A DNA stretch of 64,000 nucleotides. It comes from Schmidtea nova (lineage: Eukaryota). The position numbers were made by a program, and so were the translations under genes. The notes beneath the pieces were generated by a model that saw only the letters and a program-made list of their open reading frames with translations, was not told where the DNA came from and did no database searches. Below, one piece after another: positions 1,536-51,597 of this stretch. The stretch is from contig CM097882.1 of the NCBI GenBank assembly GCA_044892505.1, positions 196,974,001 through 197,038,000 on the forward strand, given 5' to 3'. The first letter of the stretch is position 1; every line of letters starts with the position of its first letter.

Positions 1536-4500
1536 TTAAGTGCGGTCAAATCGAGCAATCACCCCACCGTCACACGCGCACAACAATATCTTAGCCTCGT
1601 TCGTAAACCGGGTCTGTCTAATTGTAACCGGAAGCCCGTTTTTGTTATTGATCATGAATTGCTGAGGCTTCAAATCAAAAATACTATTTCCCTCGGTGAT
1701 TTTCCTGTCTCGCAAATTCCACACATATATATAGCCCAACCGGTTGCCGAGCGCAAGAAGACCGCGCTTGACATCGATATCGAATCTGACATACCAAATA
1801 TCGCAGTCATCCAATTCAAACTGGTGGAGGATGCTCGGTTTGACGTCTTGGCCGATTTTAAATGTCGGCAACAGGCTGGAATTCAACGAGCCCGGCTTCC
1901 ATAACACAAGGTACCCTTCACAGGACTTCGAAAACACCAGCCCCCCAAACCAGCGGCCGCAATCGATGTAATTTCCATGGATTTTGTTGGAACTGAAATC
2001 GGGAAAATGCTGCAGAAACGTATCGAAAACCATTTCATTTTCATGGTGCAGATATTTACGAGATTTCGCAATCGAGTTTGTCAATCGAGAATCGTCTAAT
2101 TTCCAGATCTTGATTGTGTGATCCATTCCGCACGAGAGTAAAAACCGGCCGGCCATGTCAACATCGCCGTGAAGGATCTCGGATCTGTGGCCTTCTGAGC
2201 CACCAAAAATACAAACCAAAACACTATTCCAAACATTCCATAATCTGATAGTATAATCTGAAAGTTATTTTAAAATTTTACATTAATTTACATATAGCAG
2301 TATTTATTGGACTTTTTCTTGTAATATTTTCCCTTATGATCTATTAGTTCTCATTTATTTAGGGTGACCATTCGTCCCCGATCAATGCCGGTATTCTGTA
2401 TAGCTTACACATAGACTCAGTAAAAGGTGCGAGAACCGACTATTATTCGTTGTAATTTGATTTTGCGAGTATATCAACTATGTGCAATCTCTAGCGCACT
2501 CAAAACTTCAGTCACGAATCGTCTCCGGCATTAGACCAGGGATCAGCGGTTAGTATAATACGATCTATTGGCATCAGAACTGATGTCACATATAATTACT
2601 GATCTGGTTTCCAGACCGGTGATGTATGTTCGACCGCTCATGATTTTTATTAGAACCAATTGATGGTATATTCGGATACATTTATATTGATTCAATTGAT
2701 GAACTGGGATCGCAAGGAACCGGTAATCATGTATTGTCTAATTTTAATCAGAGTTATGAGACTTATAGACACTGTTCATTGATTCAGTTAAATGGTTATA
2801 CAATTAGTCAGTGCATCGTAATAATGATGAAAAATGCTGGGTGCATGTGATTAGACTTCGTGCACGCCATGCAGATAATGGGAGGGCCACATTATATAAC
2901 GGAACATGCCCCTATAATAATGAAATACACACTTATCATATAGTTATGTAATATGTTCTAATTCCGATAAATCCTTTGACATTAGGATGCCGAATCACTT
3001 AGTTTAGCTAATGTAAGGTTGTCCTTTTCCGAGCTGGTCCGATTTTAAGGCCGGCCACTAAATAGTCCTTCCGCATTATTTTCGTTTATTACCCCGAAAT
3101 CGGATGCAGGCTGAGTCGGATGTTTACATTCGGTGGGAACTATGGATCTCGAATTGCGAAATCTCGCCAATCCTTGTGTGATGAAGTACTTGTGAGTTAT
3201 CTGGTTAACTAAAGCGGAGAATGACTCCAGGTAACTAGTTTGTACTCTCTTTATCCTAGAGTTTCTATTCTAGCTCTATGTCCAGGAAAATGTCCCAAGA
3301 TTAGAGATTCGTATATTATCAAAATAAATTTAGTTTATGTGATATTTTCACATACAGATCGAATGATTTTCAGAGATTTATATTGAAAACATTGTAAACA
3401 AAAATTATTTTACATTATATATCGTCTTCGTATTCGGGCATCAACCAACTCCCCTAAACTTTCATTCATTATTTACTAGTTTGTGACTTTTATTCCTTAG
3501 CGACGATGTTTTTCTTTAAGTTAATCCTAAACACGTGTTCGAAAGTTTAGGCGACAAATTTTTTGTATTTTTCCCTTTCAGTCAGTCTTTTGACGTGAAG
3601 TTACGTGAAAGTGACAGAATTGATTGAATACCTGAACCTCCGGAAGTATAAACAAAAAATCGCAAATTCTTTATTCCGGTAAGTAAACTTGTTATGTTAA
3701 AACTTTACATTAACCTTTTAAATAAATTTAATTTTAAAATGAGAGATTTTCAGTCCAGTGACGGCTAATATTGGCAGAATTTGTTAACCCTTATCATCGT
3801 TCAATTGAATAAAAATATTTATTTCATGAATATCAAGTAAATTTAAATGTTTTAATATTTTTAAGTTTTTATTTGTATGTCACAGTAAAAGTACGAATTT
3901 CAGTAAATGTAAACATAATAATTATTTTAATCTTTTTTAAATGACGAACGTTCATGCTTCAAGATTAATGGAAATAATTTCAATGGTTAATTCAAGTAAT
4001 TAAGCAAAATTTAGTGTAATAATAATAATAATAATAATATCATAATTATCTTTTTTCACCTTTGATCTTTTTTTATTATTATTATCAATAATTCTCATAA
4101 TGACTATAGATCAAAATTTTTTTTTATAAACAATAACACAATAATTCGGCACAGCCTTTACCAAGCCTTTACACACTTGATAAAGGCTGTGCCGAATTAT
4201 TGTGTTATTGTTTATAAAAAAAATTTTGATCTATAGTCATNNNNNNNNNNNNNNNNNNNNNNNNNNNNNNNNNNNNNNNNNNNNNNNNNNNNNNNNNNNN
4301 NNNNNNNNNNNNNNNNNNNNNNNNNNNNNNNNNNNNNNNNNNNNNNNNNNNNNNNNNNNNNNNNNNNNNNNNNNNNNNNNNNNNNNNNNNNNNNNNNNNN
4401 NNNNNNNNNNNNNNNNNNNNNNNNNNNNNNNNNNNNNNNNNNNNNNNNNNNNNNNNNNNNNNNNNNNNNNNNNNNNNNNNNNNNNNNNNNNNNNNNNNNN

Positions 4501-6221
4501 NNNNNNNNNNNNNNNNNNNNNNNNNNNNNNNNNNNNNNNNNNNNNNNNNNNNNNNNNNNNNNNNNNNNNNNNNNNNNATATCAATAATTCCCATAAAGAA
4601 TGACTATTGATCAAAATTTCTTTAAATAAGTACACGATATTTCGGCACAGCCTTTATCACTTGATAAAGGCTGTGCCGAAATATCGTGTACTTATTTATA
4701 GAAATTTTGAACTATAGTCATTCTTTATGGGAATTATTGATATTAATAATAAAAAAAGATCAAAGGTGAAAAAAAGATAATTATGATAATAATAATAATA
4801 ATAATAATAATAAAATGGATATTAGAAGTGGCAAATGTCACAAAAGCTTGAGCCATTTTTGTTATTATATGAATAATTTACATAGAAATACAAAAAAGTC
4901 TTGCAAAGTTCGGGACATGTTCATTATTAAATCTGTGAAGCCTTTTGGTCTATGTTCTTAACTCGTATATCGTTTTACTTGTAATGGGTGTAATGCCACA
5001 TACATTTGAGAGACTATCTCTCATATTCTTTTATTGTGGCATAAATTTCGAATTTTTCAAAATAATTTTATTACTAACTAATAATAGACGAATTCAAATT
5101 TATATTTTTTGTAACGTAGTAAAACCATCTTGAAAATCTAGATTTAAAGAAAACAATTAAAGAATTCATTAAAGAATTGGGTTACCATTCGTCGCGGATC
5201 CTGTGGGACAGTGCCGGATTCTATTAATAATAATTACCCCCCGCCCCCGACAGATATCCCGGATTGTACTCAAGAAGAGGTGTTTATTCTTACAAAAATG
5301 TAAAGAAATCAAAGCAGGCTTTCATAGGTCATCAAAACTTATATAATATGAAGTAATTTACATTATCGAGTTAAAGATAGCATAATACCGGAAGATAGAG
5401 CATTGTCACGCGTTTCAAGTGATGATATTTTAATTACTCGTGTTTGGGAATAAAATAATATTTGATATTCGGTTATCAATATAATCCTTAATTTTAATTG
5501 GTTGATATTTTAATATCAACTTTCAGAAATTATAAAGAAATAACAATCAATAAATACCTTTGCTAAATGAAAATAATAAATCTGGATAAAGAGGATGAAA
5601 TATGATCTCATTAATTGATTGACCATGACCGCCTAAATTGAAGATAACACCACCCATATTAGGACTGATAATTCGAATAATTCCCTTTTTCCCGGCACAT
5701 GCAACGATTTGTTGGCTTGCAGTGCAACTTTCCAAGTACGATTCAAACATTTCATTTCTATAATTTTCATTTCTATTTTGATAGGGGACATAATAAGACC
5801 ACGCACAGCAATAGAACTCTTCATTTGGGTCGGAATCTTTATATGCGTGAAGAAATTTGATATTGTTTATAGCAGTGTCAATAAGACATTCATAAAAAGT
5901 AACATTTTGGCCGCCAACTGAAACAAATAAAATTGGATCAGACTTATTTTTACGAATACGATCATTGACAGATATTCCAAAAATAGAATTGTTGTGGCTC
6001 TCTTTGATTAAAGCAGTTTGCTTAAAATTCAGTTGACTTGAGTTTAGCAAACTATCCGATAAACTTTTAGAGGAATTTGAACAACTTTCCTTATCTAATT
6101 CTAAATTTACCAGTCCCTTACGTTTTGCTTTGATTAATCTGGATTTTTTGTTAATTTGACATTTATATTAAATGTATGATTACTTGCGTTTTGTATCTAT
6201 TTTATTTTCTTCTTTAGACAT
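1536..6221 (-). CDS. EED: Polycomb protein EED/ESC (WD40 subunit of PRC2), 3 exons: 6221-6184, 6138-5558, 2257-1536 (~446 aa)
   Basis: Diagnostic EED motifs HNNSIFG, DPNEEFYCCAWSY, GHGQSINEI, KDYTIRLWNV..IFGGSEGHRSEIL, SCGMDHTIKIW, IHGNYIDC, CDIWYVRF. GT-AG introns of 45 nt (6139-6183) and 3300 nt (2258-5557) join all exons in frame (38+581+722 = 1341 nt). Confidence 0.93.
4030..4810. repeat. Two head-to-head foldback (palindromic) copies of a Penelope-like element 3' end, inside EED intron 2, separated by an N gap
   Basis: Arms of 4030-4240 and 4578-4800 are reverse complements about centres ~4168 and ~4660. The sequence matches 51560-51690, the tail of the Penelope element (ttgataaaggctgtgccgaa...gatcaaaggtgaaaaa). 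Confidence 0.85.
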
Positions 6222-8076
6222 TAAATATTTATAAAAATAACAATTAAGTAACTTAAATTATAAAAATTGTTAATGAAAATTAAAACAAAAGTATAAGTGC
6301 ATAATTTGAAAATAATTTTTAAAAATATTATTTAAACTATATAAAAACTTATATATTTAAGATTTTTATTTTCAAATTATTTTAAAAAGTATTTTAAAAT
6401 AGAGAGATTTTAATATCTTACAAGGTTTTCAATATAAAAAACATTGTTAAGTTGTTTTAATCAATCGATAACACATAGATGCACAAATATCAAGTTTGAA
6501 TTACAAATACTTCACTCTAATTCGGTAATACAAATTTTAATTTCCCTTGAAACTTTTAAAAATATTTTATTTTATTAAGTTTAATTAATATTAATTAAAA
6601 CGTAACAAGTATGTCGTAAAAGTGACGTAAAATTTATATTGAGAAAGATGAATACAATTTATGGTTATTAAGTTGTAAGTTATTAATTAAAAAAGGCAAT
6701 TTTTGGTATTCAGATATATAAATTTATGTACTGTTATGGCTACACCTGGTATAAAATTTGAAATATATTGGAAAAAAACTAAATCCAAAGTATTTATTTA
6801 TTCAGTAGTAATACAAGCAAGTCTCACAGTGCACGCCTGGTTGAAGAGATGCTTTTCTTTCTAGTCACAAAATAATCTATCTCGATACGCTATGACAGCT
6901 TTTTCTCCATCTCCTTTTGTTTGACTCATAATGATCTCGATTGCTTAAAATCTGACATGATTGTTTTAGATAAATTTTATTCCTCTTTTTAGAAAATCTA
7001 AAATATGATAATCGTACAAATTTATTTTTAATCTTTCGAAACTTTCGAAACTTTATAAAATTTCCCTAAAATATCATTAGAGTAGGCACACAATTAAAAA
7101 AACACATAATATTAAAATAAAACAAAAACGCAAAAAGTAAACACGTGATTTTTATTTTAAAAAACGTGCAAAACCCTAAAAAATATTAATGTAATGAGTT
7201 GGATTTTTTGCAGCTATATAGTCTCTAGCCTATTTCTCAGCTCAAAAGCTTTCTCCCTCCACTTGAAACCCGTTTCTTAGCAACATTGGTACTGTGAAGT
7301 AGATGAATATGTTTGCACAAGGTAAGATGCGTATCCGTGACTGCTAATAGACTAGCAATTCATTGGATTTAAGTACCGCGGATAAAAAGTAATGGTACTT
7401 TTATCTTTTAGGTTCAATCATATTATATTCCATCACCGTTTATAACTATTTTCTATAATCATTTAACATTAATATATTAATGTTTACATTTTCCTCGTAA
7501 CCTTCAGACTAAATTAATTCTCTATGAATTCAGTTACTTATTCCCGACAATCAAACATAACAAACAAAATTTAAACAAGATGATAAATGCAATAACATTT
7601 ATCTGTCTTCTATCACATGTACCATTTCAAATTCTTATCTGGCCTGTGACCCGTGCGAGATTCCGTAGTTGTTTCCTTTTCCGCTCGGCTCTTCTTTGTG
7701 CTGGGTTCATGTAGGGGTTAGATCAGAATTTCCAATAGGTACTAGGGATACCCCGTCCATGATCATACATAAATGTTTTCTATCTCACTCGAGTGCCCTT
7801 GACTACCTCCCTATATAGCCAATTTGGTGATGCGCAAGGTGATTGAACAATCATGGGCAGGTGAGCTTTATTGCTAGAATGACTCCCCATTTATGTTCAC
7901 AGGTTTTGGCTGCCTTTAGAAGGGCTTACGCAATTTTATTTATTACAAACAAAACGCCTATGTATTCGATTTCTGTCTCTATGTTTCTTACAAATCTGAT
8001 TTAAGTTAATTATTATTAATTACATAAAACGAAACGAAACAGAGAAAAACGACAATTGTCACTATCCGAAATATTT

Positions 8077-8676
8077 TTATTTTCCGCAAAAATTTAAGAA
8101 ATTTCCGTCGGGAAGAAATATTTCTGCTAACAGATCCACTTCTGACATCTCCGTCATGCTATCGACCTGGGCTTGCAACTGTTGGGCGAACATTCGCTGT
8201 TGTCGACGGCGTTTCGACCCAATCCTTTTTCTTTTCTTTGCAGGATTGGCGACTGGGGCGGGAATTACCACTGGCATGGGACTTGTGATTTGTAGTGACT
8301 CCAATCCACCCACATCAGTCCCTACGGAACATGCAGTCTTCCCTTCAGCTACCCAAGTGCTGAAACGTAATTGGCCGGATTTGGTTTCTCAGTTCCTTTT
8401 CTATGAACGAGGTTGTCACAGAGGGGAGGCACTTCCGCAACTCCATCTTCGTTGCCTCCCACTCCACGCGATATTTGTCGGCCGTTCTTTGGGCTCTTTC
8501 GGTGCGGGCTAGTTGCTCCTTCATTCTCGCTGGAGCAAACCAGCTCTTCCGCAAATACTGCACTTGTGCCTCCCATTTAGACAGTTGGGCCTTGATCAGT
8601 GCCAACTCCTTTTCCAGGATTCGCCTAATCCCCAGGCTTAATCGATCTCATTTTGGTATTTTGTCTCTGGATTCAT
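8077..8676 (-). pseudogene. Disrupted orphan coiled-coil/basic ORF of the TG...CA element (paralog of 48411-49007)
   Basis: ORF-track pieces 8345-8605 and 8077-8313 align with 48411-49007 (WFAPARMKEQ, KRKRIGSKRRRQ). ATG at 8676, one in-frame stop and two frameshifts. Confidence 0.75.
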
Positions 8677-10595
8677 ACTGTAAAGTAAATGCAGCGGATT
8701 AGTAAATCTTCTACTGTGAGTTATTTTATATAGTGACAAAACTACAATTCGTATCAATTACGAAAAACAACAAAAAGAAATAAGCAAGACTCATATATAA
8801 TTCCCTTAAAAAATGGTTTATTAACTCGTCATCACACAATCGTTCGGATACAATGTTCAATTTTGTTTCCATACACGGAACAATATGTAGGCCTTGGTTT
8901 ATTGGAGCTTGACGAATAAGAGCTAGTGAGAATTCAAGCGTGGGGCTTCTTCGGACGGGTCGTGGTGAGGTTCATTGATTCAGCCCCAGTTTGAATTGTT
9001 CGTATTGAGGGATATGTCCCGAATGGATCATCTTCGTGGGGTTTCGATCTGGGCCATTTATGACTATTACGAGCAAGCCAAATGTTGGAGAATGTCCTTT
9101 GTTGGAAATTGGCAATCCTGGGCCTCCGCGGTATAATATTCGGTCTCGACCGGTGTTCCAAATGGAGAACGGGCACTTTTTCCCCAATTCCCTCCTCCAT
9201 TTATACATCAAAATGTTAACTGTTCTCATGATTTAGTGTGGCAAGTCTGTTAGCTCTCGTTCCTTTTTAGACGCTGCCGTGTTGGCTGCCGTTGCCGAGT
9301 TACATTGGGTTGATATCAATTGTTCTAAGGATATATGCTCCATCTAGATTATTCTATCAAACATTCTTTATATTAAAAGGCTTAATTAATCGCCAAATCT
9401 AGGATACATATGACGAGACAAAAAAAAAATTCATATTAAGTTAACCCCGGTGTCGGAAATACAACAAAAAATTAATACTATTTCGAATATCGACACTGTC
9501 GCTATGTACAGCGTTCAGGATAAATTAAAATTAGCACTTCGTATTTACCTGCGCTATTTACAGCGATCAGGTTTACAATGTTATCGAAAAAATTGTTACA
9601 ATTAACCCGGCATCTAACCGAATCAGCTGGTTTACGTGTGGACAGCATTTCTTCATTATTTGTTCCGACTACTTAGCCAAAATTATCACTGAAGTTAACA
9701 TGATCGAGATTCTGTTTTATGACAGACATATGTAGTTTATTTTATTTTGTCGTGATGTGTCTACTCTTTGCTAACTGTGCGCAAAGCTGGTGGACCAGTG
9801 TGTCAGGATGTATTGCCTATAATAGCTGCCTGATTTACCTGACTACTGGTAATTGATTGTACTGTTTGTTGAATTGTTACAAAAATTTCGTGATTTGTGG
9901 TGGATCGATTCAATGATGATGGAATATTCTAACTATGTAATTGTTAAAAATAGTTCTATCGAACACATCGTGCCGACTCCCAAAAATCCCGCTGTGAGAA
10001 AAGTTATTGGTGAATTTTAAGCAACCATGCCCTAGGTGCAACACCGAGTTAATTATAGTTTCTTTAATTTACTGTCTACGACAATCATATAACATTTCGT
10101 TCAAACAACTTTCCACACTCGCCCTCTCGTCTATAAGCATCTGGAATATCTGTTCCGTGGCATAACGATAACCTATGAGCAACCCCGATATACGATTTAA
10201 TAACCTCCTAACATTTAAGCTAAAATCCTGGAAAAAAATAAAATCCCTTTTTTGTTTGCTACCCACTCACCATTCTGTGGAATTGTGAAGTCCCACAATA
10301 ACGGCTGGCTCCCTCGCAGCGTGAGCTACGGAGGAAGCATATTTATTGAAACATTAAATACAATAAATAAATCAGATCAAAAGAAAACATATATTAATAT
10401 AACATCAAAATAATAAAATCATGGGAACATTGAAACAATATAAAAATTTTACTTTTCTTTCCAAGAGTGAAAAAACTTGCTAATAAGTATCAATATGATC
10501 AAACTTTAAAAAACAGTTTAGTCGTTCTTTAAGTATCTCAAAATTGAAAAATTAAGTTTTTAAGTCTCACAACTAAGTCTGAATTTGTGATTTTC

Positions 10596-10662
10596 GGATC
10601 GGTATTTATACTGATCCAGTTGGTCAGATTGACCAATCAGGATCAGGCCGTCCATCAAAGTA
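10596..10662 (-). promoter_or_regulatory. CCAAT + GGTCAnnnTGACC + TATA promoter cassette of element copy A
   Basis: 67 nt identical to the reverse complement of 47273-47339. Contains ATTGG, GGTCAATCTGACC and TATAAATA on the minus strand. Confidence 0.6.
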
Positions 10663-11048
10663 TGTCACTCATTTTTCTTTATTCTAAATAATATTTTATT
10701 TCCGTTTAAGATTTCTCATTGGGTGGTCGTGATTTTCCAAGTAATTATTCAATTACTTGGACTTTTATTTTTTATTAATTTATAATTTTCGGTTTCAGGC
10801 CACCTGCTGGTTGCTCTGTTGCAAAATATGTTAATTCTTTTCTACTGGTAATTTATTTATTGTTAATTATTTATTTATTTCTATTCTTTTTCCTAGATTG
10901 CTATGTTTTGGTAAATTATTTTTATTATTTTTTGTTTTAATTGTCGTATCATTTTCTCCGTTTTTAGGCTATTTGGTGGGCCCAACACTTGCTTTATTTT
11001 TGTTTTTTATTCACCTTTTCTATTTCAGCAACTGGCACATACATTCTA

Positions 11049-11350
11049 CTAGGAAAACATGCCTGTTCCTGATAAGTTAATGACTGTATTGCGCTTGAGA
11101 GGGTATCCTGCATGACTTTTTTTATTCAGTTGGCATTGACTCTTATTGAGCTTGATTTTAAGAGCGCTATTCTTGAAAGCATCACGATTCATTTCTTTTT
11201 TTAATGCATCTATTTGTCTCTTAGAGTATGACATCTTTTCAGGCAAAAACCACGTGTTTTCTTTTTTTCGACATCTGTGGAGAATATTAACGAATATTCG
11301 CTCCGCTTCATGCTTTTGTTGGGTCGCTTCTTTTAGTGCGTTTCTCAGCT
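11049..11350 (-). pseudogene. Distant paralog of the element ORF (WFLPEKM motif), whose basic C-terminus is displaced to ~7600-7695 by element A
   Basis: Extended frame ELRNALKEATQQKHEAERIF...KENTWFLPEKMSYSKRQIDALKKEMNRDAFKNSALKIKL resembles ...TSWFAPARMKEQ...ATKIEL. RRAERKRKQLRNLARV lies just beyond element A. Confidence 0.45.
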
Positions 11351-11570
11351 CTCATTTTAAAACATATATTTTTAAGATAATAGGTCATCAATTACTCTTC
11401 TTATTTATCAAAATGAAATTTGTATCAGTAATCGTCTATTAAACACCTAAATTATTGACACTTTTAAGAATTACGAAATTAAACAAAACAAGAAACATAA
11501 AAAGGTTACAAAATTTTATTGCCAAAAAGTAAAGAGTTCAAGATGATTGAATTTGCATGGTGCTTGTTAT

Positions 11571-11882
11571 TCATAAGCTGCCGTCGCTACTAACCAATCG
11601 AAGTGATCTTCGGGACCACTGTCTCTGGTTATATTTTTCTCGGATTTTCTTATTCAGTTCCTTTTGGCGTTGTCGAAGGCGCGCTCGTTTTCCAGGTTTA
11701 TTCCTTAGCTTTGTTGGGTTTCTTTCTATGGGTATGAGTGATTCTAATAAAGTGTCTTGATGTTGTATTTCTCGTTTGGAAATGATGAGCTTGTTTGACA
11801 TCCGTTGATTTCTGGAATTGATCCTCCGTTCCTGCTTAGGAATCACAATTTTTGGAGTGGAGTGTAACTGGTATAGCTCCAA
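11571..11882 (-). CDS. Orphan Arg/Lys-rich ORF (TTG start in track; no ATG seen)
   Basis: 103-codon open frame with KPGKRARLRQRQKELNKK. No recognisable domain. Confidence 0.25.
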   Translation of the reverse strand: MELYQLHSTPKIVIPKQERRINSRNQRMSNKLIISKREIQHQDTLLESLIPIERNPTKLRNKPGKRARLRQRQKELNKKIREKYNQRQWSRRSLRLVSSDGSL

Positions 11883-12856
11883 GGAAATCGAGAAGCCTTC
11901 TTCACTCTCAATAACGAAATTAAACTCGCAATTGTCTGGTTGATGCGTGAGGTAGTAGAACCTTTATGACATCCATGAGTGCCTGCTTTACGCTATATAT
12001 GTAGTTAATTGATTTTTCTGTGCGCTGTTGCATCCTTGGACTCTTTGTGAAGATTGAATCAATAAATTTTAAATTTTGCCATAATTAAGTTTGATTCTCT
12101 TTTTTATAACTATATTTAAGTTGCGTGGCTTCCGTAGGTTGAATCAGCCCCCGTCCTTCAAAATTAGAATTTATTTTTAATTTTAACATTTCAGAAAATT
12201 ATTGAATTCTGCTTTTAGTTTTGTCGTGGAATAACAATTTGTTGTATAGAAACTGGATTGTTTTATTCCCATTTCTTCTTAGTTCTCCCTCTTTCAGGTG
12301 TTACATCTTTGCTGTTGGTAAACGGATTTATCATTTAGATTTTTTATGATTTTAAATTATAGTGGATTTTAATCGTACTTTTACTGAAATCTGAAAATGC
12401 TAAGTTCATTGATTGTTTCCGTGATCAGAATCGATGAATAAAAGCTTACCGTGTAGGTAAACAATTTTTTAAACTACATCATTGATATTGATTTTATGTC
12501 ATTGTTCATTACGTCAATTCTTACAGATTTACAAAACTAGAATCGGAGAAAATAGAGAGTTATGTTCAATTCCAAATTAAACATTCAAACATCAGATTAT
12601 CATAAGACGGTGTTTCGAAACACTTGGTCGTAAAAGATCTTTTCTAACATAAATGATTGGCATCAAGCATTGGTTTCTCGCAAATCGTGCAGTACGGTTT
12701 TATTTTTGTTGGAGAGTAGTCATTTTTTCTTTATCAAATATTTGTTTTTGATCATGTAAATTATAGTAACTCGTCAAGTATTTTATCGTAGGTATGCTTA
12801 CTGGTTCTTATTTCCTTTTACGTATTTGTTCTCAACAAATAAGAGGTAAGGTTCAA

Positions 12857-12939: not shown

Positions 12940-15900
12940 AATGTTGTATTCATTAGGACGAATATTATATTAGGCATTCATTAGGACGAAGATGAAATCA
13001 CAAGCATTACATGTTTTCCAGCTTTCATTTAGCATTTCAGCATTTTATAAGTTTATAAGTCAGATTTTCTTGTATAGATAAAATAGCTACGATATTATAG
13101 TATAAATAATATAAATAACAAAACCTTGCACTTGGCCAATCCACTAATCCTCATATAGTCAGATATGAGATGAAGCGTTTTTGGATGTATGCGCTCATTT
13201 CGATGAAAAAATGGATCAGAACGCTGAAAAAACTCCTGCGAACTAATGATTCACCAAAGCGACTAATTGCGGTACAACGACTAGATGGACCACCATCAGA
13301 CGTATGGAAAATGCATTAATTAAAAAAAAATATATGGTAATAAATTATATCAATAATTAGAATAAATCAAATATAGGTTAATTGTATAAAGGGGCGAAAT
13401 GTGCAGGTTTTCAAATGGGGACTAAATTGTCCGACATTAATTTCATGACATACAAAATAATCAAATAGAAATAAAACGAAAAAGCATATAAAATATTAAA
13501 TTTTCAAAGTCTAAAATATACCTGATAAAATAACATGAATATTAATTTAAGTTAATAATAAAGGAATCAACTAAAACAATTAAAATACTGGGCAAGAGAC
13601 AATCGAGTGGCATGACTTCGATGGTCTCCTGCCCTTCAATAGAAATAACCCTTACAGATTGGTTACGCGCTGGTTCTTGAAGTGCGAACAGAAAAATTTT
13701 CGGAACGATCGATTGAGGTTTCTCTACTAATTGAACAATGTTTCTCTGCGAGTCTCTTACTCTCTGTAGATATTTTGTTGTGAGTAAAATTTCAGTTGTG
13801 ATTCTTGCTGGGGACTCTTCAACTTGAAAGATTTTTCGTTAAAGATTTTTGCAGGGGTCCGCCTTGGAAAAATTCAAACTTAAAAGTCGCAAAATTCTGA
13901 AGAAATCCATTTTGATGGCGGTAAATATAGTTGCTCAAATTGCTATTTTCGTTGATGTATTAAAACTAATTGTTCTAGAAGAAATTTTCTAATTCTTGAA
14001 AATTAATTTCAATAATTTTACGCAAAATTGAATTATTATTTTTGCATAAAATTTTAAATAAATTCTAAATAATTAATTTTTGATCTAAAATTTCATTTTT
14101 AAATCAAAGTTTTTCCTAAGTTATTAATTTATCATAATTCTAAACTAAAAACAATTTTCTTTCATATTTTTCGAATTTTTACACTAAAATTTGAGAATTT
14201 CCTCCCGAAAAGATGTTTATTTTTCTTAGTGTGTTATTCCATTACACAATTGATGTTTTTACGTTATACAGGTGTTTTTCACATATACACTCAATGCGCT
14301 TTTGTTCGTTTTAATTTTTCAACTTGTTTTGATCGATTATTTCATATGTTCTGCTGCTACTGGGTTGTAATTGGTGTTTTGAGTTCATAGGATTTCAAAT
14401 CTACTTCTTGCGCGCTCTCTACATATTGTAATACCGCGCCATTTAAACAAATCTCAATCTTTGCCCAACAAAAGTAACACATAACATCGCTTATTTTATT
14501 GTTATGCTCAGCCAAACATTGATTAAAAATGTATTACGTTTTATTTGTAAAAACCCAGCAAAAAATATATCCCTGCAAAAAACATCGATGAAGAAATTAA
14601 AATTGTAAAAGAAAATCGCAATGTTTTCTAATTTCGTTGATTTTAGATATTAACTTGTAGCATCGAAAACTAAATGTATACAAAAAGAAACAAATTCAAA
14701 GTGCACAATTAAGTATCATGAAGTAAAATAAAATAAGAGAATATAAAACATTAAAGTACAAATAGTAGTCATTACATAAGTTGGTTGAGATAAGGATGAA
14801 ACGATAGAATAAAGGTGTTTTAAAAGAGAGCCCATAATTTGATTGCAGGTTGGATTTACATACAAAGGACCGCCAAGAATTAAATGGGGAAGATCTTTGC
14901 TTGTATATTGAATAAAAAAGCATGATCAAAGAATAAAAGCAGTATTAAAATAAAGAGAATAAATTATTAAAAATTGTAGAAGGAATCCCCATTGAAATAT
15001 CGTAAAAATAACAGAAATAGAATTGAAAATAAAATTGAAATAAAATTCGATTGTTTTAATCAATCAATTAACGCGCGCAAAAGTTAATGCACACATTATT
15101 TAATAGAATTTAAAAAAATATTTAAAAAATAAATTATAAAATTAAAATTACGGAAAATAAATAAATAATCATTTATTAAAATAAATAAGTTAAATAGTAA
15201 AAATTATATATGAATAAAATTATAAATAGTTGCATTTAATCAATGAAATGCGTAGGCGTCACTTATAATTAGTATAAATAGACACTGAAAAATCATAATT
15301 TAACTACTAATTTTGTGGACGGATAATTTAACTTTAAATTTTAAGGAGAGTGATTTTTCCCTCCCAGCCAGCACCAGTGACGATTGAGTTTATTCAGTGG
15401 AGTGAATCGAACGTAGGTTTTATGTTTTATGATGATAAATATTAGGCTGTACATTTGAAAGTTGTTAATAAACCTTTAAATTCTATATGTTTTTTGTTAA
15501 ATATTATCAAGCTCGTTCAAATGATTTCTGATTTAAAATGATTTTAGGAGAAGCTCTGTTGGTGCAAAGGTTACAAGTTCTCGGTTGTTAAGAATTGTTT
15601 GGATCGATTAATCGATTAAAGTCTTCCTACCATCTTATTATTAAATTATATAAAATAGAGAGGGAAAGAGTAAATTATGGAAATTAGGAATAAATAAGCA
15701 TTGATCTGTGATAGAATAATGGATAGAAAGATTGAAATTAATTAATAAAATAGATATGTGCGTAACTCCTTCTATCGGCAGCAGGAACCTGAAAGAGAAA
15801 ATATAGTGAGGATTATTTTTGGCGACGAAGTTCACCTGCTCATTGAATTCTCGCACCACTATGTACATTGCCAACATAGATTACGAGAGAGTAACTATGG

Positions 15901-16950
15901 GTTCACAAGTGAGGGAGATTTAACATTTTCCCGATGGTGTGTGGGTTTACCGTAATCCATAGTAACAACAATTTTTAACAACCCATACACCAACAAAATA
16001 TTGATATAAATTTCGGGTTTTAGAGATGAGATATGTTGAGTGAATTAAAAATAATAAATCGCTTTGTTTTTATAAAAAATAAGGCATGTTTTTTGTAAAT
16101 TAATCAATTTAGATTATATATAACATTTAATTGAAATTATATCTAAAGAATGGGACAAAAGAATGAGCTCTATACCTTCTAACGGTCACTCTTGAACCCA
16201 AAAGGGATATTCAGTTAATTATAATTCTGTGTAGAGCGCTAACGTTTTGCGAATATCCACCCGTTTGTTAAATTATGGGCGTTGCTTAAATTGTTTATGT
16301 GGTTTCTAAGGAAAACGATAAATTGAGATCCATCAATAATCTAACAAAGAACTTAGAATTATTTTACTCAAAAAATCTTTCGTCTTAAACACTCGTGAAA
16401 AAACACATAGTAAAAATAAATGACTGAAGATGAAACAGTGAAACGAAGCTCAAGCGATGAAACGAATGAAAAGCCGGATTTATACTCAGAGCAGTCCTTA
16501 CATATTTGGTATCTCTGTTCTAATTTTTGTGGCGCATTTAAAAATTGATATTGCATTTCATATATATACACTTATCTAAAAATTATTGTGTTCAAATTAT
16601 TTTAAAAATAGTAATATCAATACAAAATAAAATAGAAAGTTTTTAAAAATTATTTGGTGTTCATGTGTTATAGCACAGTCAACATATTGGTTGGACATCC
16701 CTGTATGTAACAACTGATTGAAACTTTGATTAGCTCATGTTAATCATTGTTTAAAAAACTAATCAAATGAACTTGATTTTATTTTTGTATTTTATTTTTG
16801 TTTTTTTTCATAATTCAAATCAGGAATAGTATTAAATATTTAAATTGTTTATTCGAGTTATTTTATTGATACACCTTGTTTTTATTACAAATATATTATA
16901 TATTTATGTTTAATTGTTTTTAATATTTTAAAATAAATAAATAAATTGTC

Positions 16951-20642: not shown

Positions 20643-20924
20643 ACAATCACAATTGTGAATGTCATATTTTACGGTCTAATTTATTTTATGATTAGAGATA
20701 TTCGTGTATTATGTTTTAAGCGCCGTCATTGTTATGGACGGCGCCCTTGCGGTCACCGGGGTCCCCCTCTTTTTCTTGTGAAGGATAATATTTATTATTA
20801 TTATTATTATTATTATTAACCTAAAACGAATTTTAAATTCGAAATTCGAATTTGGCTTGCTATAGCAAACGCTATAGTAAGCCAAATCGACAGAAATAAA
20901 AAAATCGATATTTAAAAATAGAGT

Positions 20925-36727: not shown

Positions 36728-37590
36728 ATTAAAAGCTCAAGTGAACAAAGACAAAAATCAAGACAATTTTGAGAGAAACAGAATCAAACAAATAAATCTG
36801 AGTAAAGCGATAAGACCATTGTTTAACTAGGAGTAGCAGCTATTTACCAAGTGAATAGATATATAGACGAATGGAGCCATGAAAGAGTATAAGGTTCGAA
36901 AACAAAGACTATGGAAAGCTGAAAGAAGAAAAAAACAATTTCGGAAAATAGCCAAAATTGCAATTGTAATGGAAAAATTAAATAAACACTATTTTAGTTT
37001 CCGTTTTCATTTTCTTTTTATAGTAACTATTTCAGTTTTCCATTATTGAGTTATTATAACAGAATGTGTATGGTTGAATTCTCTACCCGTTTTCATTGAA
37101 GCAGAACATTAATGAATTAGAAAAGTAGATAAAATAGGCCTGAGGGTTACAAGTAAAGGCAGATAATAACAATTTTAGAATTTTATGATTTTCTGCAAGG
37201 TAATAATGAATAAAGCTGAAGTTAAATACATGATGAAGGGAGCAGAATTGAGATTACCATAACCTTCTGCTGGGTCTACGATTTGACCATCATTTGAATA
37301 AATAAATAATAATAGATAAAACAAAAATAACTATTGTAAAACAAATACTACAAGAAGAGATTTAAATGGAATGAATTGAATTAATAAGACAAGAAATAAA
37401 TGGTGTAATAAAAATAATAAAAAGACATATAAAAATGTAATAAGAAATGAGATTTAAATGTAATAAAATGTTTGGCAATTGAAATAAATAATTAATTAAG
37501 AAAATATTTAACAAAATTACGATCATTTAAAACAAAAAAATTAAATCTATCTATTTTTAAATAAATTATATTTTGGATCATCAGCTTCAC

Positions 37591-37640
37591 GCTGATTGGT
37601 TGATGTGCTGATCTGATCAGTATAAATACTGATTCAGAAT
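37591..37640 (+). promoter_or_regulatory. Third, diverged copy of the CCAAT/TATA cassette; probable element terminus TGCTGGGT at 37268
   Basis: ctgattggt...gatcagtataaatactgattcag. ATTGG lies 327 bp from tgctggg, versus 352 bp in copy B. Confidence 0.5.
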
Positions 37641-38847
37641 CTAATGATTTATATGATTTATGCGATTTTTGTTTTGAGCAAATTTTGAGCAGAAATTTAG
37701 TTAGAAGGTATGTCTGATCTTTTATTTTATTTGTATTAGTATTATGATATCTGTCATTATATTTCTATGAACCTAAATTTTCGTTTTAACTATTGTTATG
37801 ATTTTTACAATTTATGATTTACTTGCGCTCCTTCTACTGTGTAATCGGTGGAAGGAGGCGAAATGAATTATTTTTATTATGTTTAATGATTTGAGGGGGC
37901 TCCTTTCCACTGTGTAATCGGTGGAAGGAGGCAGACTTCGCCTGAGTGGAACAACTACTCCGTAAAGTTAGGCCGTCTTCATGGTATTAAGTGTCATGAA
38001 GAGGGTAGGACTTTAATACTGAATTTTAATTAATACTGGCAAGTATAGCCAAATACCTATTATGTTTCATTAACAATTTATAAAAAATATTTTATTCAAC
38101 GCATTTAAAAACATCCATTCGGCATTGTACATAGGACATTTGGAGCGCAGGGTTGCCAACATTGGTTAAAAGAGGATTGAATACTAAATACCATCCTTCA
38201 GAGTTTCTGGAGGCAGGAAAAGGCTAGATTGCAGCCATCTGTTATATATAAATCACCCGAACATAAAGAGGTGGAGATAAAATGAGTTGCTGAAAACATC
38301 CAGGGAAATATTGTGCCCGCATCAACAAATATAGCCATAAAGTGTAATTTCACCTGAGAGAGCTACGTCATCATGGGAATGAAAATCGTTTGGTCTTCTG
38401 GAAATCCGGCTAAGGAAGAGTACGAAAGTTGAAAAGAAAGATAACTTGAGAAACCCCTCACTATTAATAGTCCAATCTGTCTATTACTGCTTAACACCAG
38501 ACTCAGAACTCTTGTGGAGACCCAGATTTTTCATTGATTTTACGGCAAGCATCATTTTTTAAAGATAACCGCTCATTTTTGGNNNNNNNNNNNNNNNNNN
38601 NNNNNNNNNNNNNNNNNNNNNNNNNNNNNNNNNNNNNNNNNNNNNNNNNNNNNNNNNNNNNNNNNNNNNNNNNNNNNNNNNNNNNNNNNNNNNNNNNNNN
38701 NNNNNNNNNNNNNNNNNNNNNNNNCAAAGACCAAATGTGAAGCAGTTCAGAGTATATTGCGTAATTCAATCACTGTGTTAGTTATTGCGTAATATACATA
38801 ACTATTTAAGAGTGATCACTCGGTGTTTTTAGTAAATAAATCTTTAG

Positions 38848-40050: not shown

Positions 40051-40082
40051 AGAAAGAAAATCGGAATGACAGAGCAGAAGGA

Positions 40083-46100: not shown

Positions 46101-47272
46101 AGGTAAGATCGCCTCAAAATCAGCGTAAACTACAAAAGGCGGAGTAATCGTTTTACCCCAATTACTAAATGTTAAATAAGGGTTTTTAAGTAAAGTATAT
46201 AGAGTTGTGCCTAAATGATTTTTTGAACACAACTCTTGCTGACGAACGAATGAATCTTGATATCTAAACCCATTCAAGCATCGATGACACCATATGCTTT
46301 GAATACTAGTACCAGATATTGATTTATTGTCAAGATTTAAAAGTCTACCAAGATTGGTGACTGCTATATAATGAAAAGAGTCACCATTTTGCAAAAGAAT
46401 CAAATTAATAGGAATTCCGTCTACTACTTTCGACCTATGAATTATATCAATACATGGATGTTTGAAAACTTCAGGCTTAGTGTCTAGAATTCCAGATTCA
46501 TCATATGACAGTACTTTAATCGCATATCCCGGGTTTTTAGCTTCAAACTTTGGGATATTGCAAAGACGCATAGGTAAATCAGAAGGACTAAAGTTAAGAT
46601 CTGAAAGATTATAATTACTGGCCCTATGTCTATTTTTACGAAAAGGTACCTCATCATACTTAATAATTACCAAAACAGAATAGATAAAACACAAGTCATC
46701 AGAATTATGAACATTTACAACACAATGTTTTGACTTTAAAGATTCAGGAGTATCAATACCACCGTAACCTATCAACCTACTAATCTCAGAAAATTTTGTT
46801 AAGATGAAATGAATTTCATTAATTTTATTAATTACCCAATTACTGCCTCTATTATTAATTAATGTAATTTTTTCATTAAGAATATTAATGCCATCGTCTA
46901 AAAAAGTATCTGTGACAGGTTGTGCAGAGTTCGAAATAACTATAGTGTTGGGCCCACCAAATGGTCTAAAAAAGACGAAAATAATTTAATAATTTAAACA
47001 AAAAATACAAATAATAAATACAAAAAACATTGGAAAAACCTAAATTAAAAATCAAAATAAAATAATAAATAATAATAACTAAATTTCCAGCAAAGGAAAA
47101 AAATCAAATTGACACGGGAACGAGCAGCATGGGGGTCTGAAATAAGAAAATTACAAATAAAATCAAATAAGAGTACAATAAATTAGTTAATTACTTGAAA
47201 AATCAGGACCACCCAGTGAGAAACCTGAACCGGAAATTTAAAATGGTTTATATTAAAATAAAATAACAAAGT

Positions 47273-47339
47273 TACTTTGATGGACGGCCTGATCCTGATT
47301 GGTCAATCTGACCAACTGGATCAGTATAAATACCGATCC
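47273..47339 (+). promoter_or_regulatory. CCAAT + IR3 palindrome + TATA promoter cassette of element copy B
   Basis: ATTGG at 47298, GGTCAATCTGACC, TATAAATA at ~47325; identical to 10596-10662. Confidence 0.6.
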
Positions 47340-48410
47340 AAAAATATTAAAAACCGACATAAAAATTTTGATTACCGAACTGATCTATAACAATCGATTC
47401 AGTCACATCAACTTTGTTACGATAAATTTTCGAAATAATTTTTGGGAACGCATCAAACTTGGATCTTAGAGAGTAATTTTTTTTTTATTGTTATTAAAAT
47501 AATTTTTATTACATGTTTCTCATGATTCCCATTTGATTTTATTTTAATATAGTTTATTATGATTAATGAGTTGGTTTATTCTATTATTTTATTTTATAAT
47601 AAATACACTTCCTCAGTAGCTCACGCTGCGAGGGAGTAAGCCGTAAGTGTGGGATTTCACCGTTCCACAAGATGGTGAGCGAAGTTTTTATTGACAGTTT
47701 TATTTTATTTAATTGAGTGCTATCAGAGGTTTACCTTAAAGTAGAGTTGTGCATGGGGCCAGGGTTGTACTTGCAAACAATCAAACAGGAGATCAAACAG
47801 GAGATGTCCAAGAGTAATTAAAATATCATTGATTATATAACTTAACAAATCAGCTAAATCGGTTTCACCTTATGTACATTATGTCGAATCCACACAACTG
47901 CAGCTGATCTAGACAAATAGATGCATCCGGACACACCGAGGAGATTCCGACATTTTAATGAAATTTTTGACTAGGGTATAAATAGTAACATAATCGAATT
48001 TAAATCACAGATTGGATAAATAAAACAGTAACCTGATCGCTGTAAATAGCGCAGGCAATAATATTTGAATTTCTTATAAACGTATCCCGATCGCTGTATA
48101 TAGCGACGGTGTTAAGCGCCCCAAACTGAACTGCTCAATGGCTTGCATCCGACGAGATCCAGTCAATCACGGGTTGCACATTACCCCCGTTCACGGCCTC
48201 CAAGTGAAGCGTTTTCGCTAACAACGTTATTCACACTACTATGAATAAATATGTATCATCAATTAAATGGTGTTGATCTGTCTTTTTGTTTGTTATTAGT
48301 TGAATTTCGATCCATTTATTGATTTAATTATCCAAATCTTTCCACTCGACGGATAGTATTAGCCGTTGGTAGTATAATTTCAGTATCATAAAATAGGTTT
48401 ATTATTTAGT

Positions 48411-49007
48411 ATGACGGAAACCAGCCAACAGCGGGAATTGGATAAGGCGTGGAGAATCCGCCGAGCATTAGAAAAGGAGTTAAATCAAGAAAAAGCATTA
48501 CGGGCTAAGGCAGAAGCTCAGATTCAGTATGTACGAACCAGCTGGTTCGCCCCAGCCCGTATGAAGGAACAGATGAGTCGAACGGAAAGGGCTCAAAAGA
48601 CAGCTGACGATTATCGCACAGAATGGGAAGCAACAAAAATTGAGTTGCGCCGATGTCTCCATTCTGTGACGACTTCTTTCATAGAGTCCGAATTGAGATC
48701 ACAAATCCGACCCATCACCTACCAGAAATGGGTAGGAGAACAGAAGGTGGCCTGCTCGGTCAGTACCGACACCGATGGTCTCGAAGTAACAACAGTACAA
48801 AGTCCGATAGAATCCACCGTTGCACCAAATCCCGTCGGAAAACCGAACAAGAGAAAGCGAATCGGTTCCAAGCGCCGTCGCCAAAGGAAGCTGTTCTCTC
48901 AGCAGCTGCAGGCACAAGTGACCACTATGGCAGAAATGTCGGAAGCCGAGTGGTTATCAGAGATATTCCCTCCGAAGGAATTTTCAAGGAATTTTTGTAG
49001 CAGATAA
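48411..49007 (+). CDS. Orphan 198-aa coiled-coil protein with Arg/Lys-rich C-terminal motif, intact in copy B
   Basis: ATG-to-stop ORF; homolog at 8077-8676 with many substitutions but conserved motifs. Confidence 0.7.
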   Translation: MTETSQQRELDKAWRIRRALEKELNQEKALRAKAEAQIQYVRTSWFAPARMKEQMSRTERAQKTADDYRTEWEATKIELRRCLHSVTTSFIESELRSQIRPITYQKWVGEQKVACSVSTDTDGLEVTTVQSPIESTVAPNPVGKPNKRKRIGSKRRRQRKLFSQQLQAQVTTMAEMSEAEWLSEIFPPKEFSRNFCSR

Positions 49008-50417
49008 AATCATAACATGATGTCAGATCTTGGTGTTGATTAAATATTTGCTTGTTTGTTTTTTTTGTTTGTTATTTCCTATGTATTTCCTTCGGTTACA
49101 CAGTTCATAATAATTAAATTTAAATTACATGTCACACAACGAAAGGAGTAGCGTTAAAAATTTTAAATATTATCGAATTCGTAGTTTCTTTTTGTTTGTT
49201 TTGTTTTTTGATAAATACATAAAATCACAAGTACACCGAATAACAACAATTGCGTAAGTCCTTCTACGGCCGCGTAAACCCGTAAACATAAAGGGGGAGT
49301 AGTCCTAGCAATAGTGCTCACCTGCCCCTCATTGTTTAACCACCCTGCGCATCACCAACTTGGTTATCGGGGGAAATAATCAAGGGCGCTCGAGTGTAAC
49401 TTACGACTATTTGTACATGATCATGAAGGGGAGATCTCTAGCAATCATTAGAATTTTTACTAACCCTTCCATGAACCCAGCAATAGTTTTAAAAGCACCA
49501 TCTTTTTCAAACTCTACTTCGATGCAAAATTGTATTTTAACAGTTCCCATTGTTTCAATTACGTTATTTAATTTATTAATTAAATTAACCAGTACAATCA
49601 TTGTTTTTAAATTCAAGTTAGTGACAATCATTTTCACTATAGCATGTGATTTATTTAAATCAAATTTAACAACAGGTCAAAGAGAACCACCAACCTGTAC
49701 TTCAGGAACTAAAGAGTCTATATCTGATAATTTATCGTCATCGTCAGAAATTTCAATAAAATCAGGAAGAGAACCAACAATTTGAATATTGGAATTATCA
49801 ATTGAACCAGGAACAAAAGAGTTCAACCTCAAAATCAGAAAGATTATTTATATCAGGAATGATATCATCATCAGGAATGATATCATCATCGGAAATTATA
49901 ACTATATCTGAAGGAACAACTGAAGTTACACCTGAAAGAACAACTGGAGGAATATCATCAGAAAGAACTGACTTATTAATTTTGATTGGGTTTGGACTAA
50001 AGTCATTACATTTTCTTTTAAGTGGTAATTTTAAAATAGATTTCTTTGATGTTTTAAATTGATCTAAATGCTCGCAATGAGTCTTGTAAAAATCTATATA
50101 TAAAGATGATGAAGTAGATTTGCAAATAGGGCAAATGTAGTAGTTTTTAAAGTTATGAGGGTATGCATAATATCTTTCCATTATTTCATGACATTTTAAA
50201 TCATGAATTGTAGAGTTGCAATAATTTTGATATAAATTACCTATAATTTTAAAAAAATTATAAAAAAATTATGATAAAATAACAATGATGTATATATTAA
50301 GTGTGTATACACACATTCATTTCAAAATATCGTAATATATATTTATTGATATGATTGGTTAAATAAATTCCAAAAGTTCTATATAAACGAATTATAAAAT
50401 TAATATAATCATTAAAA

Positions 50418-51555: not shown

Positions 51556-51597
51556 AATACACACTTGATAAAGGCTGTGCCGAAATATTGTGTTATT
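51556..51597 (+). ncRNA. Minimal type-I hammerhead ribozyme candidate with U3-A8 core variant
   Basis: acac-UUGAUAA-a-GGC tgt GCC-GAAA-UAU-U-gtgt: stem I acac/gtgt, 3-bp stem II, palindromic AUAU stem III. Confidence 0.65.

What the first reader, a model, noticed from the sequence alone, without database searches (positions are those of the whole stretch)
7699..10987. Unclassified gene-bearing TG...CA mobile element family (copies 7699-10987 and 46946-49482)
Seen: two diverged 2.5-3.3 kb units share termini TGTTGGGCCC...GAACCCAGCA and only a 7-10 bp imperfect inverted repeat. They have 4-bp TSDs (perfect ATAG in copy B, which splits pPolB), no transposase or RT, an internal promoter, conserved structured blocks, a conserved ~180-nt 3' block and one orphan ORF. 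Known: TG..CA ends with 4-bp TSD are the signature of Gypsy-type/Ginger integrases. Inference: either giant protein-coding solo LTRs of an unknown retrotransposon or a new non-autonomous class mobilised in trans. A basic-motif protein encoded beside structured RNA elements recalls Rev/Rex-type accessory systems (speculative).
Basis: partly seen in the sequence, partly recalled or inferred. Interest (0 to 1): 0.82.

Follow-up and report, generated by a model that had tools for sequence, protein, structure and literature searches.

The report
Gene-carrying giant planarian LTR relics
These are real mobile-DNA insertions in a planarian genome, most likely the left-over, unusually long end repeats of giant retrotransposons, and they carry their own small conserved gene of unknown function.

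Summary
A (7699-10987, minus) and B (46946-49482, plus) are diverged relatives with shared TG...CA ends and no RT, integrase or transposase. B's 4-bp TSD is confirmed against an uninterrupted pPolB paralogue. The host is a Schmidtea-type planarian (EED exon 97% to S. mediterranea). The orphan ORF is under purifying selection (pN/pS 0.26, pS saturated). The window holds three more relatives: C (no ORF), D (truncated) and E, a decayed homologous ORF into which A inserted. Read by hand, E's ORF matches the published probe of the Repbase-derived planarian transposon GLT2 (12 of 29 residues), so the ORF family is probably already catalogued; the link to A/B is indirect. Best reading (0.6): solo LTRs of giant Burro/GLT-type Ty3/Gypsy elements, left by LTR-LTR recombination, with an accessory gene inside the LTR behind a CCAAT/TATA promoter, poly(A) signal, strand-specific hairpins and a splice donor. 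Ginger membership fails. A stand-alone single-unit element mobilised in trans (0.22) is not excluded, because no parent element lies in the window. The Rev-like role is untested.

The parts
7699..10987 (-). Copy A, whole unit (3289 bp); TSD CAAG/CAAA; inserted inside the decayed ORF of element E
46946..49482 (+). Copy B, whole unit (2537 bp); perfect ATAG TSD; splits a Polinton pPolB gene
46946..47272 (+). B 5' segment, 53% A (U3-like); the opposite strand has short GT-AG intron patterns at 47194-47137 and near the terminus
47273..47340 (+). B promoter core: inverted CCAAT box in a palindrome plus TATAAATA at 47325; 67 of 68 nt identical to A
10595..10662 (-). A promoter core, TATAAATA at 10610
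47598..47680 (+). B: AATAAA (47598), two tandem hairpins, ATG|GTGAG splice donor (47675)
   Evidence: z -3.84 on ORF strand, -0.87 on the other
10265..10347 (-). A: AATAAA (10347), two tandem hairpins, ATG|GTGAG splice donor (10270)
   Evidence: z -3.33 on ORF strand, -0.43 on the other
10072..10227 (-). A only: candidate 52-codon exon after a 43-nt GT-AG intron, in frame with the ATG before the donor; no homologue in B
   Evidence: inferred from sequence pattern only
48030..48112 (+). B middle conserved hairpin with an internal direct repeat
   Evidence: folds on both strands
9493..9573 (-). A middle conserved hairpin
48411..49007 (+). B intact orphan ORF, 198 aa, pI 9.8: long helix (2-98), beta hairpin, basic patch at 144-160; preceded by an AG|TATG acceptor-like site shared with A
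8077..8676 (-). A homologous ORF, broken near its 5' end and near 8350; open segments 8629-8351 (76% aa identity to B) and 8346-8080 (58%)
49250..49482 (+). B conserved 3' block (U5-like), 76% to A, ends CCCAGCA
7699..7933 (-). A conserved 3' block
14815..15995 (+). Relative C: short, ORF-less; TATA at 15272, 3' block 15752-15995 ending CACCAACA; 5' end and TSD not defined (start approximate)
   Evidence: nhmmer E 1e-14
37268..38582 (+). Relative D: 5' part only; starts TGCTGGG, related promoter at 37576-37639, two hairpins at about 37820-37940; cut by an assembly gap
   Evidence: nhmmer E 3.6e-4; z -5.39
10989..11351 (-). Element E, decayed homologous ORF, 5' pieces (GLT2-like segment at 11276-11190)
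7612..7692 (-). Element E, basic 3' piece of the same ORF on the far side of copy A

Best explanation
A and B are solo LTRs of two long-diverged families of giant planarian Ty3/Gypsy retrotransposons of the Burro/GLT type. The parent element is reverse transcribed and inserted by a Gypsy integrase, giving TG...CA ends and a 4-bp TSD (ends and TSD shown; the enzyme inferred). Recombination between its two long LTRs later deletes gag-pol and leaves one LTR between the original TSDs (inferred). Each LTR carries, on the ORF strand: about 400 bp of A-rich U3 with a CCAAT/TATA promoter, about 260 nt to an AATAAA, two hairpins and a strong splice donor, a splice acceptor directly before a conserved ORF, and a conserved terminal block (motifs shown; their use inferred). 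The ORF would be expressed by read-through of the poly(A) signal and splicing. Its product, a long coiled coil with a basic NLS/arginine-rich patch, most likely acts in the nucleus on the element's own RNA (splicing, polyadenylation or export), like Rev/Rex or CERV (inferred; about 0.3 for that specific role). Selection on the ORF acted while the parents replicated; the solo copies are dead ends.
For: Ends fit the Metaviridae integrase motif TGTTRNR...YNYAACA at 7 of 7 and 6 of 7 positions, with TATA and AATAAA in LTR order. 4-bp TSD proven for B; flatworm Gypsy solo LTRs have 4-bp TSDs (lennie 63 of 65). Host is Schmidtea-type, where over 90% of LTR elements are Gypsy and Burro has an internal region up to 25 kb and a total over 30 kb, which by subtraction gives LTRs of about 2.5 kb or more, the size seen here. 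ORF pN/pS 0.26 (95% CI 0.19-0.34, 178 codons), third-position identity 37% against 74-78%. E's ORF is homologous to B's (0 of 2000 full and 4 of 2000 local shuffles) and matches the GLT2 probe by hand. Opposite-strand intron patterns whose last exon runs off the 5' end (P about 0.008 in each of A and B) suggest that the unit normally continues into flanking element sequence. C shows that the ORF region is a dispensable insert between conserved end modules.
Against: No parent is seen: none of A-E adjoins gag-pol, a PBS or a PPT, and 79 of 80 small ORFs scanned in and around them gave no Pfam family (the one hit is a protease fragment at 20220-20675). Five relatives without one internal fragment in 64 kb is also what a stand-alone element predicts. 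The two gag-pol elements in the window have unrelated LTRs. A 'U5' of 1.9-2.6 kb would need a very long strong-stop DNA. The GLT2 link is indirect and by hand; GLT/GLT2 primers mismatch the window at 6 or more of 20 positions. Whether Repbase GLT/GLT2 are LTRs of Burro-type elements could not be read; GLT2 and BURRO1 are expressed in different cells. With a relaxed pattern the intron enrichment is modest (A opposite strand 1.5 per kb, B 0.4, background 0.59). No NES-like pattern in the protein.
Confidence: 0.6

Rival explanations
1. A stand-alone, single-unit non-autonomous element: it has its own promoter, structured RNA signals and gene, and is copied and integrated in trans by a Gypsy RT/integrase (for example through a one-LTR-like circle), with no two-LTR parent.
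For: Five diverged relatives in 64 kb, none beside gag-pol, PBS or PPT. ORF under purifying selection. GLT2 is treated as a transposon in its own right, with an expression pattern distinct from BURRO1. A conserved CAG|GTGA donor on the opposite strand of the 3' block in A, B and C would continue the antisense exons if the ends were joined.
Against: No terminal redundancy for strand transfer and no PBS/PPT inside the unit, so no known route to a full DNA copy. Solo LTRs explain ends, TSD and promoter without a new mechanism. The 3' block intron pattern is not significant (P 0.13-0.16).
Confidence: 0.22
2. Sub-case of the solo-LTR reading with the orientation reversed: the genomic RNA runs opposite to the ORF, starts about 300 nt from the TGTTGGG end, and the ORF is an antisense gene inside a giant U3, driven by a divergent promoter. 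Counted within the 0.6 of the best explanation.
For: Gives the usual long-U3, short-R/U5 layout; that end is T-rich on this strand and carries GT-AG patterns; CCAAT boxes work both ways (general knowledge); antisense accessory ORFs are known in Gypsy elements.
Against: No conserved AATAAA in the terminal 330 nt on that strand (sequences). TATA, AATAAA and the strand-specific double hairpin all lie on the ORF strand.
Confidence: 0.15
3. Non-autonomous cut-and-paste DNA transposon using a Ginger-type transposase, carrying a passenger gene.
For: TGT-type ends and 4-bp TSD are shared with Ginger.
Against: Ginger1 has 40-270 bp TIRs and CCGG/CCGT targets; Ginger2 has 50-180 bp TIRs and RTATAY targets. 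Here the inverted repeat is 8 of 11 nt and the TSDs are ATAG and CAAG/CAAA. The two ends are conserved as different, asymmetric 230-700 nt modules.
Confidence: 0.07
4. Host gene duplicates or chance similarity, not a mobile unit.
For: The ORF is under purifying selection and has no known relatives.
Against: Homology stops exactly at TG and CA; B interrupts a Polinton gene with a proven TSD; A interrupts another element's ORF.
Confidence: 0.01

Closest known systems
GLT2 / GLT (Repbase-derived S. mediterranea transposons used by Li et al. 2021, PMC8532177)
   Same: The visible 400 of 485 nt of the GLT2 probe, read by hand on the reverse strand, encode a coiled-coil ORF with 12 of 29 residues identical to E (11276-11190), including the motif TW..P.K; that motif pattern occurs exactly three times in the window's six frames, in A, B and E. 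Same host genus.
   Different: Not the same family at DNA level (primers mismatch at 6 or more of 20). Direct GLT2-to-B similarity is weak. The GLT probe showed no clear match by eye. Length, ends and TSD of GLT/GLT2 were not available; my recollection that Repbase files them as LTR-type is recalled, from no call.
Burro / GYPSM1 giant Ty3/Gypsy elements of dugesiid planarians (PMC6431247, section 7)
   Same: Host group, Gypsy-type ends, implied LTR size of about 2.5 kb or more, accessory ORFs.
   Different: No Burro polyprotein domain next to any copy; no LTR sequence available for comparison; the review text does not mention an ORF inside the LTR.
Solo LTRs of flatworm Gypsy elements and ta-TRIMs (PMC4558846)
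   Same: Single TG...CA unit, 4-bp TSD, internal promoter and poly(A) signal, read-through and splicing.
   Different: TRIMs are typically 0.5-1 kb overall and non-coding; A and B are 2.5-3.3 kb single units with a selected ORF.
CERV of C. elegans Cer1; retroviral Rev/Rex (PMC10309623)
   Same: Small nuclear accessory protein from a spliced mRNA of a Gypsy-type element; basic patch and RNA hairpins here.
   Different: CERV is large, with G and M domains; this protein is a 198-aa coiled coil with no NES-like pattern. No sequence comparison with CERV was made and no fold match to any viral protein was found.
Additional and antisense ORFs of plant Gypsy elements (Grande, RIRE2, Retand; PMC7264820)
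   Same: Orphan, often nuclear or coiled-coil accessory proteins kept under selection.
   Different: They lie between pol and the 3' LTR, not inside a TSD-flanked terminal unit.
Ginger1 / Ginger2 (PMC2836005)
   Same: TGT-type ends, 4-bp TSD.
   Different: TIR length, target preference and transposase all differ or are absent.

Membership tests
Ty3/Gypsy solo LTR | Short inverted repeats TGTTRNR...YNYAACA | tested here: met
   TGTTGGG (7 of 7) and CCCAGCA (6 of 7) in A and B
Ty3/Gypsy solo LTR | 4-bp target-site duplication | tested here: met
   B perfect and confirmed on the empty paralogue; A 3 of 4
Ty3/Gypsy solo LTR | TATA-like promoter followed by AATAAA | tested here: met
   TATAAATA at unit position 378/380, AATAAA at 641/653, conserved in both; function untested; AATAAA is common in this AT-rich DNA
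Ty3/Gypsy solo LTR | GT-rich stretch after the poly(A) signal | tested here: inconclusive
   The T-rich stretch precedes AATAAA; GC-rich hairpins follow it
Ty3/Gypsy solo LTR | Same unit occurs in pairs around PBS, gag-pol and PPT elsewhere in the genome | not testable with these tools
   Only 64 kb available; no pair in the window
GLT/GLT2 (Repbase) | Homologous ORF | tested here: inconclusive
   By-hand match of the GLT2 probe to E (12 of 29 identical); E to B moderate; direct link to B weak
GLT/GLT2 (Repbase) | DNA identity at family level | tested here: not met
   Four published primers mismatch the window at 6 or more of 20 positions; only primer sites were tested
GLT/GLT2 (Repbase) | Same ends, length and TSD as the consensus | not testable with these tools
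Burro/GYPSM1 | LTR sequence match and linkage to the giant polyprotein | not testable with these tools
   Grohme 2018 not held; no polyprotein fragment beside the copies
Ginger1/Ginger2 | TIRs of 40-270 bp | tested here: not met
   8 of 11 nt only
Ginger1/Ginger2 | CCGG/CCGT or RTATAY target | tested here: not met
   ATAG and CAAG/CAAA, two sites only
TRIM/LARD | Two direct terminal repeats with PBS and PPT between them | tested here: not met
   No internal direct terminal repeat in A or B
Rev/Rex/CERV-type export factor | Basic RNA-binding/NLS patch | tested here: met
   Nine or more K/R in 15 residues around 143-160, conserved in A
Rev/Rex/CERV-type export factor | Nuclear export signal | tested here: inconclusive
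   One regular-expression scan found none
Rev/Rex/CERV-type export factor | Binds own RNA and is needed for export of unspliced RNA | not testable with these tools
   Needs experiment

The most novel reading that the evidence does not exclude
A widespread planarian class of single-unit, gene-bearing satellites: each unit is a free-standing LTR-like element with its own spliced regulatory gene and RNA hairpins that is copied and integrated by Gypsy/Burro enzymes in trans without ever being half of a two-LTR element.
Probability: 0.2. Interest if true: 0.85.

Novelty: new member of a known kind. Interest (0 to 1): 0.47.

Why it matters
If these are solo LTRs, planarian giant Gypsy elements carry a selected accessory gene inside the LTR itself, next to retrovirus-like RNA signals. 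I found no description of that layout in ten literature searches; Repbase and Grohme 2018 were not readable, so it may be recorded there. It would give an anatomy for GLT2, a transposon de-repressed in neurons after smedwi-2 RNAi, and a second invertebrate candidate, after CERV, for Rev-like control that can be tested by RNAi in planarians. It also means such LTRs can be mis-annotated as orphan host genes. If no parent exists, it would be a new way for an element to use an integrase.

Tried and rejected
Protein relatives: none among 98 candidates of similar length or 7999 longer ones with the A+B alignment; shorter forms were not searched. The 1.84-billion search gave one hit, a chemotaxis-type repeat protein, rejected as a coiled-coil artefact. 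Exact sequence not in the collection. Atlas best scores 0.87 and 0.90, unnamed. No Pfam, PHROGs or PDB sequence match. AlphaFold2 on a 3-row alignment: pLDDT 69, pTM 0.26; Foldseek no match at E 0.001 or better; VIA-align only generic coiled coils, Z up to 7.7, covering residues 1-101, the rest barely tested. No Rfam family, no tRNA. First guess of a nematode host was wrong. An internal LTR end plus PBS at CCACA-nnn-TGGTGAG was considered and dropped: only 7 nt are shared between A and B and no second LTR follows; not tested against planarian tRNAs. The 3' block structure: 11 of 48 pairs compensatory, 0 of 500 shuffles, but the opposite strand gives 11 of 46 and n is 3, so inconclusive. E's ends and 3' block were sought and not found. 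C's 5' end and D's 3' end not found. The bacterial promoter scan is irrelevant to this host. Supplement searches for GLT/Burro were empty in PMC11410931 (3 files, one PDF unreadable) and PMC6884822. Viral and metagenome contig collections stayed unchecked; the bacterial genome collection was not used.
Full report
Observation. Self-BLASTN finds four colinear blocks (E 2e-80, 2e-10, 2e-23, 2e-42) and the homology ends at the shared termini. Block identities are 71% (5' segment), 67 of 68 nt (promoter), 85% (hairpins), 78% (middle block), 63% (ORF) and 76% (3' block, 232-234 nt). The inverted repeat is 8 of 11 nt. B has ATAG on both sides; the second pPolB copy in the window has 7 nt at that spot where B's flanks have 11, so the duplication is exactly 4 nt. 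A has CAAG/CAAA. Ends plus TSD alone would not be convincing: 34 of 1585 candidate end pairs pass a loose filter. No scanned ORF inside A or B matches RT, integrase or transposase (one search took 80 of the 85 listed ORFs of 56 aa or more, the other five had been scanned).

Host and setting. The EED gene at 6221-1539 is 97% and 85% identical in its two exons to S. mediterranea EED-1, so the host is a Schmidtea-type planarian, probably a congener (inference). The window also holds two Polinton pPolB regions and two ordinary Gypsy gag-pol elements whose LTRs are unrelated to A/B.

The ORF. B's ORF (48411-49007, 198 aa) is intact; A's is broken near its 5' end and near 8350. Over 178 aligned codons pN is 0.23, pS 0.86 (saturated), pN/pS 0.26 (95% CI 0.19-0.34); the five other frames give 0.43-1.82 and contain stops. 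It is therefore a real gene of old, separately replicating lineages. It has no relatives in any library searched. The low-confidence model is a 97-residue helix, a beta hairpin and a basic helix; structure searches give only generic coiled coils.

More relatives in the window. A profile of A+B finds the 3' block at 15752-15993 (E 1e-14), ending CACCAACA, 722 nt after a TATAAATA: relative C, without ORF. It finds the promoter at 37576-37639 (E 3.6e-4) downstream of a TGCTGGG start at 37268: relative D, with its own hairpins (z -5.4) and cut by a gap. Copy A itself sits inside a decayed ORF (E) with pieces on both sides of it. Read with X at each break, E aligns with B's protein in the same domain order (local score 65; 0 of 2000 full shuffles, 4 of 2000 15-residue shuffles; semi-global 7 and 6 of 2000) and is the best non-self hit of the A+B profile among 1321 segments (E 0.03). 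I chose E's frames by eye, so these values are optimistic; single natural pieces are not significant (E 1.6-19; 0.045 pairwise).

Link to a catalogued family. Li et al. 2021 (PMC8532177; passages and Table S1 seen, cells cut at 400 characters, the supplementary PDF not readable) used Repbase consensus sequences and studied transposons called GLT and GLT2. Translating the visible GLT2 probe by hand on the reverse strand gives a coiled-coil ORF with 12 of 29 residues identical to E at 11276-11190 (hand BLOSUM62 score 68, about 34 bits, roughly E 0.005 for probe against the whole window; not a tool result). The pattern [TS]W..P.[KR], present in that GLT2 frame, occurs three times in the six frames of the window: in A, B and E. 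The published GLT and GLT2 primers do not match the window (6 or more mismatches of 20). So A/B are probably distant relatives of GLT2, not members of that consensus. What Repbase says about GLT/GLT2 could not be read; that they are filed as LTR-type is my recollection only.

Anatomy. On the ORF strand both copies have 330 nt at 52-53% A, an inverted CCAAT box in a palindrome, TATAAATA at 378/380, a T-rich stretch, AATAAA at 641/653, two tandem hairpins and ATG|GTGAG at 718/730. The double hairpin is strand-specific (z -3.33 and -3.84 against -0.43 and -0.87). The ORF begins right after AG|T in both. In A a 43-nt GT-AG intron after the donor puts that ATG in frame with a 52-codon exon that B lacks. 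On the opposite strand the 5' segment shows short intron patterns (2 strict hits each in A and B, P 0.008 and 0.007; none in C or D), the last exon running out of the terminus; with a relaxed pattern the excess is modest. The 3' block is conserved in sequence, but its structure is inconclusive. No Rfam family matches.

Mechanism. Ends and order of signals match animal Metaviridae LTRs (PMC3601003, passages), and flatworm Gypsy solo LTRs have 4-bp TSDs (PMC4558846, passages). Planarian Burro elements have up to 25 kb of internal sequence and exceed 30 kb in total (PMC6431247, section 7), implying LTRs of about the size of A and B. I therefore favour solo LTRs of giant Burro/GLT-type elements (0.6), the ORF being an accessory gene made by read-through and splicing. 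A nuclear RNA-processing role is plausible from the basic patch, the hairpins and the splice layout, with CERV as precedent (PMC10309623, abstract and sections 6 and 15) and plant additional ORFs as analogues (PMC7264820, passages), but nothing here tests it. Against the solo-LTR reading: no parent, PBS, PPT or Burro domain beside any of five relatives, a very long U5, and distinct expression of GLT2 and BURRO1. A stand-alone element moved in trans stays at 0.22. Ginger fails on TIR length and target (PMC2836005, passages).

Novelty and score. The element kind (Gypsy-type solo LTR) is known and a related ORF appears to be in Repbase already, so this is best called a new, diverged member of a known but barely described planarian group. 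Ten searches found no paper describing GLT structure or an ORF inside a planarian LTR; Grohme 2018, its supplements and Repbase were not seen and may contain it. Other papers seen as passages only: PMC11410931, PMC10954484, PMC6884822, PMC10175614, PMC9646362 and bioRxiv 2025.12.11.693146 and 2026.01.28.702291. Interest 0.47; the stand-alone reading would deserve 0.85 and has probability about 0.2. One genome-wide search for paired copies decides between them.

Noticed in passing
window 59188-59691 (+): TBP-like ORF (Pfam TBP, E 8e-13) at the edge of the second Polinton, beyond its integrase and ATPase-like ORFs.
   Followed up: no
window 50834-51466 (+): GIY-YIG endonuclease ORF (E 1e-5) inside the second Polinton, on the opposite strand; possibly a Penelope-like insert (label recalled).
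   Followed up: no
window 52757-53569 (-): Polinton ORF that by eye matches the translated Polinton-1 probe of PMC8532177.
   Followed up: no
window 14470 (-) and 28270 (+): Two further TGTTGGGCAAA starts sharing about 57 nt (E 0.012); no ends or TSDs found. Possibly LTRs of another family, or the start of E.
   Followed up: partly
window 11571-11963 and 13542-13838 (-): Orphan ORF remnants upstream of E's ORF, the first with a basic patch; no Pfam or PHROGs match.
   Followed up: partly
window 20654-25918 (+): Gypsy element with about 0.9-kb LTRs (88% identical, internal tandem repeats), protease-RT-RH-IN but no gag found; an inverted protease fragment lies at 20220-20675.
   Followed up: no
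window 38725-43308 (+): Gypsy gag-pol with short LTRs (122 nt identical), PBS-like TGGCGACC at about 38868, flanked by assembly gaps; it abuts relative D.
   Followed up: partly
window 7861 (+), 49321 (-), 15835 (-): A CAG|GTGA splice-donor motif is conserved on the strand opposite the ORF in the 3' block of A, B and C; on the ORF strand the same bases can pair with the ATG|GTGAG donor region.
   Followed up: partly
window 1539-6221 (-): Host Polycomb gene EED, two exons; copy A ends about 1.5 kb upstream of its start.
   Followed up: partly
window 35052-36247 and 36235-36728: Tandem array of about 145-bp period followed by a 500-bp element with about 100-bp inverted ends (MITE-like).
   Followed up: no
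window 4017-4822, 51558-51721, 62490-62541: Palindromic AT-rich repeat family (MITE-like) in several copies.
   Followed up: no
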